Of a DNA stretch of 64,000 nucleotides, positions 4,993 to 60,110 are shown one piece after another. A program made the translations under genes and the position numbers. The notes beneath the pieces were generated by a model. The model was given only the letters and a program-made list of their open reading frames with translations. It searched no databases and was not told where the DNA came from. Every line of letters starts with the position of its first letter. Positions within the stretch are counted from its first letter, which is position 1. The stretch spans positions 65,844,001 through 65,908,000 of the forward strand of contig OZ024746.1 in NCBI GenBank assembly GCA_964016885.1. The letters are read 5' to 3'. Source of the DNA: Eledone cirrhosa. Its lineage: Eukaryota.

Positions 4993-5077
<85 letters not shown>

Positions 5078-5079
5078 TA

Positions 5080-5256
5080 TGTTCAAGACCCCCACGGCAG
5101 AGCTCAAGCCATTTCGACGGGTTTTTCTGGACACAATGGCTTGAGCTCTGCCGTCGGGGTCTTGAACAGTTTCCTATTTCACACTCTACTACCCTAAGTA
5201 TTGAGTACTCTTGTGCGTTATGGTCCATCTGGTTCCTTACCACACTTCCTTCGTTA
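5080..5256 (+). mobile_element. Family C element (hairpin of HHR 3' halves plus 3' tail)
   Basis: Hairpin gaccc.acggcagagctcaagcc...ggcttgagctctgccgtcggggtc. Tail shared with 5718-5795 (inverted), 46300-46390 and 34230-34256. Confidence 0.75.
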
Positions 5257-5596: not shown

Positions 5597-5717
5597 TTCT
5601 CCCGAATGAAACAGACTTGTCCTGTAAAAAGCATTTATATATTAAATATTTATATTCTGCTTTGTATTGAGTACCTTACTTACAGTGTTTACCCTCGATT
5701 GAACCCTGGATGAACTT

Positions 5718-5947
5718 ATATAACGAACGAAATGTAGTAAGGAACCAGATGGACCATAACGCACCAAAGTACTCAATAGTTAGGGTAGTAGAGTGGCAAT
5801 CACTTTTACCATATCAGGAATTACCCCCTGAGAAGTTCGGCTATTCACTTACCAGGCTAAACATTTTCATTTAGTCCAGAATTAGCCGTCGAAACGGCTT
5901 GAGCTCAGCCGTCGGGGCTTGAGCTCAGCCGTCGGGGTCCTACTTAT

Positions 5948-5950
<3 letters not shown>
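5718..5950. mobile_element. Family C element with HHR-like motif at 5823-5917
   Basis: acccc-CTGAGAA-(g..cggcta...tagccgtc)-GAAA-cggc ttgagctca gcc-GTC-gggg. Core degenerate; 20-bp duplication of stem III; inverted tail on the left. Confidence 0.7.
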
Positions 5951-5988
<38 letters not shown>

Positions 5989-23991: not shown

Positions 23992-24626
<635 letters not shown>

Positions 24627-46015: not shown

Positions 46016-46227
46016 GATAAACACAGATATACACATATATGTGTTCAAATCATAAGGGACCTAAATCGCGATTTACGCCTCTTATGTACATTATATATAT
46101 CTATATATATCTTACGTTAAACATTTTTCATCTTCATGTAATAGTCACTTATATGTCTGAATTATTGTCGGCTTTTTGCATACATTAATTTCTTTATTTT
46201 TATTTATATATATAGAGAGAAAAGAGT

Positions 46228-46386
46228 ATGACCCCGACGGCAGAGCTCAAGCCATCTCGACGGCTATTTCTGGACTGTCGAAACGGCTTGAGCTCTGCCG
46301 TCGGGGTCATACGTTTTCCTATTTACCTAAATATTGAGTACTCTGGTGCGTTATGGTCCATCTGGTTCCTTACAACAATTCCTTTG

Positions 46387-46390
<4 letters not shown>
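46228..46390 (+). mobile_element. Family C element
   Basis: Hairpin 46228-46311 of HHR 3' halves, plus a tail ending at (TA)n. Confidence 0.78.
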
Positions 46391-54155: not shown

Positions 54156-54171
54156 GAAAGTCTTGCTCTTT

Positions 54172-54314
54172 CAAATATGTATAAGTATGTGTGTATACAA
54201 ATTATAATTTGTATACACACATACTTATACATATTTGTACATATACATACTTATAAGTAAGAATTTGTTCACTTTTATACGGGTTGATAATTATCAACCC
54301 GTATAAAAGTGAAC
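54172..54314. repeat. Two perfect palindromes (66 bp at 54172-54237; 48 bp at 54267-54314)
   Basis: Both are exact reverse complements with no spacer. Confidence 0.9.
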
Positions 54315-55585: not shown

Positions 55586-55654
<69 letters not shown>

Positions 55655-55668
55655 CACACATACACACT

Positions 55669-55700
<32 letters not shown>

Positions 55701-55868
55701 AATGAAGTAATTCCGTCGGAAAAGGTCCAGGAAAAAAGAGTGCTCTATGTAGGTTACAGAGCTTAATAGTTATGTAATAAACAACCTAAGGCAATTATTT
55801 CATTTACCAGTGGTTTCTTAAAAGCAAACAAAGTTTGTTTTCAATCATCAGAATGAAAAAATCCTGGT
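55701..55868 (-). mobile_element. Family G element with intact HHR at 55798-55858
   Basis: tttcatt-CTGATGA-ttgaaaacaaac..gtttgcttttaa-GAAA-ccactgg-TA-aatgaaa. Confidence 0.82.
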
Positions 55869-56626: not shown

Positions 56627-57036
56627 TATATTCATACATATACAGAAACACATACAAATACATACACACACATATGTATGTTGGTAAAACTCATTCTTAG
56701 ATGTATTCATATGAACCTTGTTTAACTCTTAAATATATATATACATATATATATACATATATATATATACACATACACACACATATATATACACATACAC
56801 ATACATACATACACACACACATATATATATAAGAAAATACATAAATAATATATATATATAAAAATTAAAAGATGGGATACGACAAATAATAAATAAATAA
56901 ATATTTATTTGTTGCCTGTATCGCTGTCAACTTTATAATAATTTTTATATTCATTTTTATTCTTATGTGACGGTATTTTTATTATTATACTTTTTCTTAT
57001 AATTATTTGTGTGTGTGCGTATGTAGGTGTGTGTAT
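56310..57036. repeat. Inverted repeat pair around a microsatellite spacer
   Basis: ~56310-56447 and ~56905-57036 are reverse complements. Confidence 0.8.
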
Positions 57037-57049
57037 AAAGAAAAGGGTA

Positions 57050-57155
57050 TAAATGTATATAGCTGAATTAGAGCACTCAACAAATTCCTGTAGCAAATGA
57101 TCAATGAAAATAAGCATTAAATCACTGTATGTAATTAAACATATACATACACACA

Positions 57156-57230
<75 letters not shown>

Positions 57231-57500
57231 GCACACACACACACAACCATACAAATACACAACATATACATACATATAGGTATAAATATACACATATAGG
57301 AAAAAGTATGACCCACGGCAGTGCTCAAGCCGTTTCTGAGGCTATTATATATATACACACACAAATACAACAGAAGCATATAAAATACAATTATTTACAC
57401 ACATACATATACATACAGATGTATAAACATACATACACACATACATATACATACATACATACATACATACATACATACATACATACATACATACATACAT

Positions 57501-57556
<56 letters not shown>

Positions 57557-59092
57557 GCGCAACGCATACACACACACACACAGAAATAAATATCTAAAAA
57601 TAAAAAAGGTGGGTATGTGAAGGGAAATGTAGAAAGTAGGGGGGGGGGGGTGAGGAAAATAAATAACATAGGAAAAGGTTTAAATATAAGGGGAGATAAG
57701 GGAGAAAAGGATTATAAGAGTACAGAAAGTGAATTCAGAAGGTAAAAAAATCGTAGTGGATGTAAGAACTAGAGAGCAGAGAAGAGGTTCAGGGTGGTTG
57801 AGTTATCGTAGGAATGTCAATCCAGTTACAGATCAGATGTGATTTCAGGTGAGGACAACATCTGAAGATCTCGGTCTTGGAGTTCAGGCAAGCTGAAGTG
57901 GCTTTCAAATTTTGTAAAATCCTAAATTTTTCAGTGGTACACAAAGAACAAATCTTTGTGCCCCTTTGGTACTCCCTCGAATGGTCTAAAATAGACCAAT
58001 CGATAGAGTACGGGATGTTTTTATCCTTGAATTCCCACACCTTATTTGCGGGAGAGCCGTTGCTGTTCTTTTATCGGAGTGTTTAAAAGAAGCGCCATGT
58101 GCATAAAACCTGGTTTTAAACCTCTCCTGTGTCATTCCAACATATCGTTCACTCCTGGCTGGCTGGTTGTTAATTAAAGGTGTCACTTTGGCATCATACA
58201 CAACGGATTTGGTGTTATATTTGCCCTGTAATGGGCATTCATCCGGCTTCCTGCAACTGTATCCTGGATTTATTCTCGTACGATTAGAATTAGTGATTTT
58301 AGACTTCATAGACGGGCAGCAAGAGTAACTGATTTTAATTACATTTCTATTAAATATCTCATAATATCTATGATTAGGAGGAAAATGTTTATCTAAGAGG
58401 TCAAGGAATTTCCTTCCTACATTAGTTTTGACAGTTATTTTCCTTTTCCTATTATTGTGGTTAGTTTTTTTTTTTTTTGGGGGGGGGGTAGGTAAATAAT
58501 TAATTTGTTCTGTAAATCCGCTGTTATTAAGGGCTTTATTATAATAAGAGGCGGGGCGGCTTTATTAAAAATGTCTAGAGACGAAGATAAGGTAGAAATC
58601 CTACGGCTAACGTTGGGAATAAGATTTTAAAAAACTATAGGGGGATGGCAAGACTCTTTGTGTATATATCTAAGATTTTCGTTAGGTTTATGATAAGGTT
58701 TAAAAGAGGCAGTAAGTAGATCAAGATTAATGTCAAGAAAGTTAGCATTGGTAAGGTTCGAATCTATAGTAATTTTAAGGTTAAGATTAGCAAAAGTATT
58801 GATTAAATCTTTACGGAATTTATCAAGGTTATGGCCGTAGATGGTATGAGAAACTGCCAAACCGTCGTCACGGTATACACCGATATTATGGGAAGGACAT
58901 TTCTCTTTGAGGGTGTGGAGAAGGAATAATCCTACTAAGTCACACACATCCGTACTGTCATATGAACCCATTGCAACATCAAAAGAGTTTTCAGGGTTTG
59001 ACTTTTTAACCCAAATACTTTCATTGGTAATGCAATGGCAGAGTGTATATATAAAAAAAAAAAACGATGTAGTTTCATTTACATGTATTTAG
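57050..59092 (-). mobile_element. Penelope-like element, frameshifted (RT + GIY-YIG)
   Basis: MGSYDSTDVCDLVG, YRDDGL, FLDINLDL, VVYDAKV...YVGMTQERFKTR and CSLCTTEK motifs. The 3' region at 57297-57345 holds a family C HHR half. Confidence 0.88.
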
Positions 59093-59458: not shown

Positions 59459-59472
59459 AATGATATATATAC

Positions 59473-60110
<638 letters not shown>

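What the first reader, a model, noticed from the sequence alone, without database searches (positions are those of the whole stretch)
57297..57345. Direct link between non-coding family C and a coding Penelope element
Downstream of the GIY-YIG ORF of the 57-59 kb PLE, the minus strand reads tagcctcagaaacggcttgagcactgccgtgggtcatactttttcctat. This matches family C (tagccgtc-gaaacggcttgagctctgccgtcggggtcatacgttttcctat; 5883-5940, 46277-46322). It points to a likely autonomous partner lineage for a short HHR family.
Basis: partly seen in the sequence, partly recalled or inferred. Interest (0 to 1): 0.75.

Follow-up and report, generated by a model that had tools for sequence, protein, structure and literature searches.

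The report
Captured fragment between two Penelope elements
A short stretch in the tail of one decayed jumping gene matches a very abundant repeat, but that repeat is the end piece of a different, intact jumping gene of the same clade, so the match is most likely an old hitch-hiking fragment and is ordinary.

Summary
The motif is real at 57345..57297 (minus strand). It is a family-wide part of this Penelope-like element (here PLE-W, Hydra clade): 22 of 29 copies picked by coding DNA alone carry it, and so do 24 of 29 picked by downstream DNA.

The partner inference does not hold. "Family C" is the terminal module of a different Hydra-clade element (PLE-C). All 11 of 11 further PLE-C loci carry the C core 980-1442 nt after the reading frame. 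One copy has an open 784-codon frame flanked by direct C modules. The 29 "C1" copies form a continuum of 5' truncations of PLE-C.

PLE-W and PLE-C proteins are only 32-49% identical, and their DNA shares only these 51 nt. That stretch is the last 51 nt of the PLE-C unit, and in PLE-W it is flanked by (TA)n. It sits where PLE-W's 86-92% identical sister family has a hammerhead.

Most likely this is a captured 5'-truncated PLE-C fragment that was then carried along passively.

The C module has hammerhead topology but no canonical CUGANGA box, and PLE-W holds only its 3' half. All 30 PLE-W copies examined have broken frames.

Genome-wide exact counts: C core 53,708; PLE-W junction 188.

The parts
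57297..57345 (-). The motif. It equals the last ~51 nt of the PLE-C ('family C') unit: remnant of helix II 3' strand (TAGCCTCA), GAAAC, hairpin GGC-TTGAGCACT-GCC, GT(G) in place of GTC, GGGTCATAC, and unit end CCTAT. It is flanked by TA-rich microsatellite on both sides.
   Evidence: Present in 22 of 29 ORF-anchored copies and 24 of 29 downstream-anchored copies.
57789..59088 (-). 5'-truncated, frame-shifted coding remnant of PLE-W, a Hydra-clade Penelope-like element. RT part with YRDD: 59088..58627. Linker and GIY-YIG part: 58561..57986. Endonuclease C-terminus with CSLC and CPH: 58070..57789.
   Evidence: frames. (86-92% aa identity to the intact 714-aa sister family, locus L126). (RWK, DKT, CxCX5C, CxxC and CxH in the family copy in L034). 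(homologues, Atlas neighbours with GIY-YIG/RVT_1/HTH_animal). Pfam itself found nothing.
57360..57788 (-). PLE-W 3' UTR that is colinear with the sister family's 3' UTR. Homology stops 15 nt before the motif.
   Evidence: L147 from -299 to +412 relative to its stop aligns to window 58093..57360 at 78%.
56745..57296 (-). PLE-W-specific block that follows the motif. Together with the motif it occupies the place of the sister family's first hammerhead. It includes a 133-nt inverted duplicate (56903-57035) seen at this place only in the window copy.
   Evidence: Copies L037 and L063 lack motif plus block and join (TA)n directly to the sequence at about 56740.
55793..55864 (-). PLE-W's own type I hammerhead motif. 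Helix I: GGATTTTTTCATT / AATGAAATAATT. Box CTGATGA (55851..55845). 12-bp helix II. GAAA (55817..55814). Helix III CC-ACT-GG. Site GTA, with predicted cut between 55805 and 55804.
   Evidence: sequence. (descriptor parse: helix I 11 of 12 positions paired). Homologous modules in sister families. Not found by Rfam. Cleavage untested.
55701..55792 (-). Unit end (...CATAACTAT at 55766) plus a 65-nt 'tail' (...GGAATTACTTCATT), followed by the (TA)n target tract (about 55586-55700).
   Evidence: In intact sister copies the same tail runs on into the 5' UTR and the ATG.
59560..59705 (+). Inverted partial copy of the PLE-W 3' end (reverse complement of the tail end, then the hammerhead module, then (TA)n). 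It lies upstream of the truncated body.
   Evidence: This arrangement is described for PLEs in PMC8557442, Fig. 2 legend.
5797..5953 (+). Family C copy of type C1: a 5'-truncated PLE-C 3' end, short form ending CCTAT(TA)n. It has an internal 20-nt tandem duplication (5896-5935) and is preceded at about 5739-5796 by an inverted piece of the PLE-C tail.
46218..46388 (+). Family C copy of type C2: two inverted arms of the C core plus the PLE-C-type tail, ending in (TA)n.
5076..5255 (+). A second two-armed family C copy with tail.

Best explanation
The motif is a family-wide part of the 3' untranslated region of a decayed Hydra-clade Penelope-like element (PLE-W), and it is most likely a 51-base fragment captured from the end module of a different Hydra-clade element (PLE-C), whose truncated and two-armed copies make up 'family C'.

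Shown:
- PLE-C units end in [hammerhead-shaped module ... CCTAT][about 90-nt tail](TA)n. In an upstream copy the same tail runs on into the 5' UTR and the reading frame.
- C1 copies are 5' truncations of PLE-C.
- PLE-W and PLE-C share nothing else.

Inferred:
- A 5'-truncated, tail-less PLE-C copy of the C2 sublineage was inserted by target-primed reverse transcription, or joined by template switching, into the (TA)n tract of the 3' UTR of the PLE-W progenitor. The site is where the sister family keeps its first hammerhead.
- Every later PLE-W copy inherited it as a passenger.
- In PLE-W the piece would not work as a ribozyme. The 5' half (helix I strand, CUGANGA box, helix II) is absent, and the donor module itself lacks a canonical box.
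For: (1) The motif is family-wide. 22 of 29 copies chosen by coding DNA alone carry it 480-1293 nt after the query end. 24 of 29 chosen by downstream unique DNA carry it in the same context, two of them truncated inside it. 15 of 29 motif-picked loci align without a break from the coding region through the motif.

(2) Family C is the PLE-C end. tblastn finds Hydra-type coding remnants next to C1 loci. Four extended loci are colinear with L202 over 2.3-3.35 kb, from the frame to CCTAT. The 29 C1 loci give a continuum of truncation points, four of them reaching into the frame. 11 of 11 further PLE-C loci have the core 980-1442 nt after the stop. L215 has an open 784-codon frame with direct C modules on both sides, and the upstream tail continues into the 5' UTR and ATG.

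(3) Only 51 nt are shared. The shared part ends exactly at the PLE-C short-form end CCTAT, which 12 of 29 C1 copies use. It is flanked by (TA)n.

(4) The proteins are 32-49% identical. Yet the PLE-W 'GTC' form of the motif equals the C2 majority in 43 of 43 bases from GAAAC to CCTAT (compared by eye). That is too similar for common descent.

(5) The sister family (86-92% aa) has a hammerhead at that place and no C core: 0 of 30 loci. 0 of 8 loci of other Hydra families carry the core.

(6) The donor is extremely abundant and inserts in (TA)n. There are 53,708 exact matches to the 22-nt C core, against 188 to the PLE-W junction.
Against: - No clean empty site was found. The two copies without the motif (L037, L063) lack a larger stretch between two microsatellites, so they could equally be deletions.
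- The motif comes with about 550 nt of PLE-W-specific sequence of unknown origin, which a simple 51-nt insertion does not explain.
- No target-site duplication can be read in (TA)n.
- Nested insertion and template switching cannot be told apart.
- All samples are the 29-40 best-scoring copies of much larger families, so the fractions may not hold for older copies.
- A role for the piece in PLE-W was not tested.
Confidence: 0.75

Rival explanations
1. One reading: PLE-W is the autonomous partner or parent of family C, and the shared motif is the handle by which its enzyme copies family C.
For: The motif is a fixed part of PLE-W. Both insert in (TA)n and both show inverted 5' arms.
Against: The shared part is internal, about 1.5 kb from PLE-W's 3' end. 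PLE-W ends in a different hammerhead and a different tail. PLE-C shares the whole module and tail with family C. None of the 30 PLE-W copies examined has an open frame over the 635 codons examined (longest 125-422 codons). The exact-match counts are 188 against 53,708.
Confidence: 0.05
2. Common descent: the motif is what is left of PLE-W's own first hammerhead, homologous by vertical descent to the PLE-C module.
For: It lies exactly where the sister family has its first hammerhead module, which also ends in CTAT followed by TA. It has the order GAAAC, hairpin, GTC, helix I strand.
Against: The proteins are 32-49% identical, while the non-coding piece is 43 of 43 identical to the C2 majority. 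The 86-92% identical sister's hammerhead at that site is unrelated in sequence. 0 of 38 loci of other Hydra families carry the core.
Confidence: 0.07
3. Functional retention: the captured piece is kept because it does something for PLE-W. It could be a hairpin recognised by the PLE-C enzyme, which would let the dead PLE-W family be copied in trans. Or it could be a half-hammerhead cut in trans by C-family RNA.
For: PLE-W copies are 95-97% alike although all 30 examined have broken frames, so some enzyme supplied in trans must have copied them. The core is the best conserved part of family C across sublineages.
Against: There is no test of function. The piece is not at the 3' end, where reverse transcription starts. 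The intact 714-aa sister (86-92% aa) is the simpler enzyme source. No canonical catalytic box exists anywhere in the C lineage to cut it.
Confidence: 0.1

Closest known systems
Hydra clade of C-terminal-endonuclease Penelope-like elements (Craig et al. 2021, PMC8557442; section 11 and search passages read)
   Same: Both PLE-W and PLE-C match the description: a single frame with RT and C-terminal GIY-YIG, the RWK and DKT motifs, the CxCX5C linker, CxxC and CxH around the endonuclease core, insertion into (TA)n, pseudo-LTRs, inverted 5'-truncated copies and a terminal 'tail'.
   Different: The units here are longer than the '<3 kb' given in the paper, because of microsatellite-rich spacers. The PLE-C module lacks the canonical CUGANGA box, whereas the paper reports canonical hammerheads throughout the clade. 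Its supplementary files S1 and S2 were not seen and may already list such families.
Non-LTR retrozymes as non-autonomous derivatives of PLE pseudo-LTRs (Li, Clavereau and Pollet 2026 preprint, 10.64898/2026.07.22.740005; abstract and section 14 read)
   Same: Short non-coding repeats whose sequence matches the terminal, hammerhead-bearing region of a coding PLE. Family C relates to PLE-C in this way.
   Different: Family C copies are dispersed, (TA)n-inserted, 5'-truncated or two-armed, not tandem arrays. No canonical hammerhead is present. No circular RNA was looked for. The PLE-W motif itself is only a fragment nested inside another element.
Nested or chimeric retroelement insertions (general knowledge, recalled)
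   Same: A 5'-truncated piece of one retroelement sits inside another and is inherited by all descendants of that master copy.
   Different: Here the donor and the recipient belong to the same PLE clade. The piece also landed at the position of a lost hammerhead, which made it look like a native module.
Type I hammerhead ribozymes of PLEs (Cervera and de la Pena 2014, cited within PMC8557442; not read here)
   Same: The PLE-C module keeps the order helix I, box, helix II, GAAAC, helix III, GUC, helix I. PLE-W's own 3' module (55864..55793) fits the full motif.
   Different: The PLE-C box reads CUGAGAA, CUUGAGAA or worse. The PLE-W motif has no box at all.

Membership tests
Hydra-clade PLE (for the 57-59 kb element) | C-terminal GIY-YIG endonuclease after the RT, in a single frame | tested here: inconclusive
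   By eye, the order is RT (YRDD), then linker, then VVYxAKV...RYVGMT. The homologues are 450-706 aa long, and their Atlas neighbours carry PF01541, PF00078 and PF26215. Pfam gave no hit for the pieces, even at E up to 10.
Hydra-clade PLE (for the 57-59 kb element) | RWK motif; DKG changed to DKT; linker CxCX5C; CxxC and CxH motifs in the endonuclease | tested here: met
   One search finds RWK, DKT, CSCRKPDEC, CSLC and CPH in the family copy in L034 and in the sister L126. The window copy itself reads YSCRKPDEC. Criteria are from PMC8557442, section 11.
Hydra-clade PLE (for the 57-59 kb element) | Insertion into (TA)n | tested here: met
   The tail ...CTTCATT is followed by (TA)n at 55700. The same holds in other copies.
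Hydra-clade PLE (for the 57-59 kb element) | Canonical hammerhead motif | tested here: met
   The descriptor parse of 55864..55793 gives CTGATGA, helix II, GAAA, helix III, GTA and helix I. Rfam models do not report it. Cleavage was not tested.
Hydra-clade PLE (for the 57-59 kb element) | Short element (<3 kb) | tested here: not met
   From the end of the frame to the 3' end alone is about 2.1 kb (57789 to 55701), largely microsatellites.
Hammerhead ribozyme (for the motif at 57297-57345) | CUGANGA box with helix I 5' strand and helix II | tested here: not met
   Upstream of the motif there is only (TA)n and unrelated 3' UTR. The donor lineage has CUGAGAA, CUUGAGAA or CCGAGAA. The CUGAGAA form has 512 exact genome matches, against 6 for the form with G at position 8. 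No CTGA.GA occurs in four PLE-C 3' regions.
Hammerhead ribozyme (for the motif at 57297-57345) | GAAA box, helix III and a GUH cleavage site | tested here: inconclusive
   GAAAC, GGC...GCC and GTC are present in one PLE-W subtype. The window copy and the other subtype read GTG.
Hammerhead ribozyme (for the motif at 57297-57345) | Match to the curated covariance models | tested here: not met
   No hammerhead family matched at E up to 10 in 57255-57400, 46190-46385 or 5700-5955. None matched at gathering score in the whole window.
Autonomous/non-autonomous partner pair (shared 3' end, as in LINE-SINE pairs; criterion recalled) | The short family shares the 3' terminal region of the coding element | tested here: not met
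   PLE-W versus family C: only 51 internal nt are shared and the tails differ. PLE-C versus family C: the criterion is met, over the whole module plus tail.
Non-LTR retrozyme | Tandem hammerhead-bearing units giving circular RNA | not tested
   The copies seen are dispersed, truncated or two-armed. No RNA data could be laid.

The most novel reading that the evidence does not exclude
The PLE-C end module is a working hammerhead variant whose catalytic box reads CUGAGAA or CUUGAGAA. It is kept at the ends of a Hydra-clade element whose core counts over 50,000 exact copies. The half-module fixed in PLE-W is then a substrate cut in trans by C-family RNA, which would make a split ribozyme shared between two retroelement families.
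Probability: 0.04. Interest if true: 0.6.

Novelty: new member of a known kind. Interest (0 to 1): 0.25.

Why it matters
The result corrects a tempting inference. A short shared motif between a coding retroelement and an abundant repeat does not name the repeat's driver. Here the repeat is the end of another element of the same clade, and the shared piece is most likely a passenger.

For annotating this genome, "family C" can be filed as 5'-truncated and two-armed copies of a Hydra-clade Penelope-like element. The 57-59 kb element can be filed as a decayed sister of an intact 714-aa family.

The wider picture is of more interest than the motif itself. Hydra-clade elements are very numerous here, and one lineage ends in a hammerhead-shaped module without the canonical box.

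Tried and rejected
- Rfam: the whole window at gathering score gave 0 matches. At E up to 10 there were 301 matches. The 150 listed are microsatellite look-alikes of microRNA families and the like; the other 151 were not shown. Four small scans found no hammerhead. These scans also miss PLE-W's own hammerhead motif, so a blank from them is weak evidence.
- Pfam on the PLE-W frames and on four homologues gave nothing.
- Single-strand folds of the C module and of PLE-W's hammerhead are no more stable than shuffles (z -0.79 and -1.02) and do not give the hammerhead fold as the minimum.
- Local alignment of the C1 unit against the pseudo-LTR ends of PLE-W and its sister scored no better than shuffles (z 0.2 and 0.9).
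- A scrambled hammerhead order, as in earlier notes of this scan, was considered and dropped. No CTGA.GA box lies in four PLE-C 3' regions.
- The idea that motif plus downstream block is part of a larger C-like element was rejected. In 24 of 29 downstream-anchored loci the motif always has the PLE-W context and never a full C module.
- Sequencing runs: no RNA holder was listed, only contigs with small shares, so no reads were laid.
- Look-ups of earlier findings by sequence and by place near the window returned nothing.
- One protein search timed out.

Full report
**Observation.** The same core lies at 5883-5953, 46218-46388 and 5076-5255. The 17-mer GGCTTGAGCNCNGCCGT matches 7 times in the window against 0.00 expected.

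**What the coding element is.** The frames at 59088..57789 (minus strand) are a 5'-truncated, frame-shifted copy. Pfam finds nothing in them. A database search gives 13 homologues of 449-706 aa. Their Atlas neighbours carry GIY-YIG, RVT_1, HTH_animal and DUF8422.

Section 11 of Craig et al. 2021 (PMC8557442) defines the Hydra clade by these features:
- a C-terminal endonuclease;
- the RWK motif;
- DKT in place of DKG;
- a CxCX5C linker;
- CxxC and CxH motifs;
- (TA)n insertion;
- canonical hammerheads.

A fuller copy of the family and its intact sister show RWK, DKT, CSCRKPDEC, CSLC and CPH. I call the window's family PLE-W. It is 86-92% identical in protein to an intact 714-aa family (L126), 59-66% to a 719-aa family and 37-49% to a 758-aa family.

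The genome is full of such elements. A foreign homologue used as query gave 85,819 first-look candidates, and many of the 63 scored have open frames of 714-758 codons.

**Architecture.** In intact sister copies the order is as follows:
- spacer;
- hammerhead (site GUA);
- 65-nt tail;
- 105-nt 5' UTR;
- ATG and reading frame;
- about 410 nt of 3' UTR;
- a first hammerhead-like module (CUGAAGA, site GUG);
- a conserved block;
- microsatellite-rich spacer;
- hammerhead;
- tail;
- (TA)n.

In L126 the two terminal repeats are 99% identical.

The window copy ends in the same way. A hammerhead motif lies at 55864..55793, with helix I paired at 11 of 12 positions, CTGATGA, a 12-bp helix II, GAAA, CC-ACT-GG and GTA. 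The unit ends at 55766, the tail runs to 55701, and (TA)n follows. An inverted partial copy lies at 59560-59705. The PLE literature describes such inverted copies (Fig. 2 legend).

**Is the motif part of the element?**
- The 101 nt around the motif have at least 1,557 candidates. The 40 scored are 90-100% identical.
- In 15 of those 29 other loci the alignment to the window runs unbroken from the coding region through the motif.
- Because that sample was chosen by the motif, I drew two independent samples.
- Picked by coding DNA only (57800-58200; at least 1,852 candidates): 22 of 29 other copies carry the motif 480-1293 nt downstream. One of these is a diverged form that the first regex missed.
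- The other seven lack it. Two (L037, L063) lack it through a larger gap between microsatellites. One stops at (TA)n. Four end earlier.
- Picked by downstream unique DNA (57040-57150; 832 candidates): 24 of 29 have it in the same context. Two of these are truncated inside it. The remaining five show no PLE-W-type motif upstream.

The usual form is ATAGCCTCAGAAACGGCTTGAGCTCTGCCGTCGGGGTCATACTTTTTCCTAT, or the same with GCCGTGGGGTC. The window copy has lost one more base.

**What family C is.** A search with 5800-5950 gave 2,200 candidates at 92-100% identity. Aligned, the copies extend far upstream. They end either at CCTAT(TA)n or after a further tail of about 90 nt. Of 29 copies, 12 are the short form and 17 the long form.

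tblastn with Hydra proteins hit coding remnants beside many of these loci. Five extended loci show a decayed Hydra-type frame (aa 28/42 to 752 of a 758-aa reference, 42-56% identity). It ends 1.2-1.3 kb upstream of the C core. Against L202 the other four loci align as follows:
- L204: 3.35 kb colinear at 89%;
- L201: 2.3 kb;
- L203: 2.4 kb;
- L200: only the last 0.4 kb.

Against that reference the 29 C1 loci give a continuum of 5' truncation points. Four reach into the frame, though one of the four is the reference locus itself. Many have an inverted arm upstream.

A search with the PLE-C frame found 79 scored matches, many with open frames of 784-786 codons. All 11 of the 11 loci fetched besides the query's own have the C core 980-1442 nt after the stop. 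L215 has an open 784-codon frame (first Met at codon 67) with the C module and tail on both sides in direct orientation. Its upstream tail runs on into the 5' UTR and ATG, and its downstream tail ends in (TA)n.

Family C is therefore the terminal repeat of its own coding element, PLE-C.

The C2 type (46262-46385; 1,596 candidates) is a two-armed derivative with the same tail. A PLE-C-lineage locus (L207) carries a C2-type core after its frame.

**How much do PLE-W and PLE-C share?** A C1 unit matches PLE-W only over its positions 379-429, the 51 nt that end at CCTAT. The whole PLE-C (frame plus 3' region) matches PLE-W DNA only there. The proteins are 32-49% identical.

The C2 majority line reads GAAATAGCCGTCGAAAC...GGGGTCATACTTTTTCCTAT. 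From GAAAC to CCTAT the PLE-W GTC subtype is identical to it in 43 of 43 bases (by eye). Upstream the two differ by one missing G and one G-to-A change.

The sister family's 3' UTR aligns to the window down to 57360, 15 nt before the motif. The sister's first hammerhead has no counterpart there. Homology resumes at 56719. None of 30 sister-type loci, and none of 8 loci of other Hydra families, has the C core after its frame.

Exact genome counts:

| Sequence | Exact matches |
|---|---|
| C core 22-mer | 53,708 |
| PLE-W junction 23-mer | 188 |
| C1 box with CUGAGAA | 512 |
| Same box with G at position 8 | 6 |

**Reading.** Two distantly related elements share a near-identical 51-nt non-coding piece. 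That points to transfer between them, not inheritance from a common ancestor. Several features fit a 5'-truncated tail-less PLE-C copy that landed in, or was joined at, the 3' UTR of the PLE-W progenitor and was then inherited:
- the piece is the 3' end of the donor's short form;
- it has (TA)n on both sides;
- the donor is extremely abundant;
- the donor targets (TA)n.

This step is inferred. No clean empty site exists, and about 550 nt of PLE-W-specific sequence next to the motif remain unexplained.

**Hammerhead question.** The PLE-C module keeps the hammerhead order: ACCCC, box, CGGCU...AGCCG, GAAAC, GGC-loop-GCC, GUC, GGGGU. It sits where other Hydra families have canonical hammerheads. 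Its box, however, reads CUGAGAA, CUUGAGAA, CCGAGAA, or is lost altogether. No CTGA.GA occurs in four PLE-C 3' regions. Rfam reports nothing. PLE-W holds only the 3' half. I predict no self-cleavage at the motif; this is untested.

**Autonomy of PLE-W.** None of the 30 copies examined has an open frame over the 635 codons looked at (longest 125-422). All four long loci are frame-shifted. PLE-W was probably copied by an enzyme supplied in trans. The intact sister family is the simplest source; this is an inference.

**Comparison with the literature.** Short repeats homologous to PLE termini are already described in Xenopus (preprint 10.64898/2026.07.22.740005, abstract and section 14). The Hydra clade and its (TA)n targeting are described in PMC8557442. 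I ran one literature search only, and I make no claim about what is not in print.

**Earlier notes of this scan** describe two-armed and (TA)n-inserted Penelope-type repeats, and scrambled hammerheads, elsewhere in this genome. I used them as leads only.

**Verdict.** The finding is an ordinary captured fragment, in a genome with an unusually rich Hydra-clade population.

Noticed in passing
genome-wide (G000); e.g. L126-L155, L205-L216: Hydra-clade Penelope-like elements are extremely numerous. Protein queries gave 85,819 and 89,990 first-look candidates. Many scored copies have uninterrupted frames of 714, 719, 758 or 784-786 codons.
   Followed up: partly
genome-wide; window 5076-5255 and 46218-46388: The 22-nt family C core has 53,708 exact matches. 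In the rows listed, many sit as inverted pairs whose starts lie only 30-50 nt apart, which means long hairpin-forming two-armed copies.
   Followed up: partly
L126, L147, L153, L162 (about 400-490 nt after the stop): The intact 714-aa sister families carry two hammerhead-like modules per unit. The one after the frame reads GUG at the predicted cleavage site, which the usual rule does not allow. The one before the 5' UTR reads GUA.
   Followed up: partly
L202, L206-L216, L215: The PLE-C lineage, including a copy with an open 784-codon frame, ends in a hammerhead-shaped module whose box is CUGAGAA, CUUGAGAA or CCGAGAA and not CUGANGA. The published description of the clade reports canonical hammerheads.
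   Followed up: partly
window 56903-57035: A 133-nt stretch that is an inverted duplicate of a segment lying about 500 nt further downstream in other copies. At this place it is present only in the window copy.
   Followed up: no
window 5896-5935: A 20-nt tandem duplication inside the hairpin of the C1 copy, absent from the other copies shown in the alignment.
   Followed up: no
tails and 5' UTRs of L126, L128, L215; window 55745-55737 and 46338-46346: By eye, a box GAG(C/T)ACT(C/T)T recurs in the tails or 5' UTRs of several otherwise unrelated Hydra families and in the family C tail.
   Followed up: no
PLE-W frames and homologues P0001, P0004, P0006, P0008: The local Pfam copy reports neither RVT_1 nor GIY-YIG for these proteins. 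That holds at E up to 10 for three PLE-W pieces and at E up to 0.01 for the four homologues, although the motifs are visible by eye.
   Followed up: no
window, many places (e.g. 24100-24600, 54170-54240, 59469-59550): TA/TG/TGTA microsatellites are so dense that a permissive Rfam scan lists about 300 spurious microRNA-like matches.
   Followed up: no
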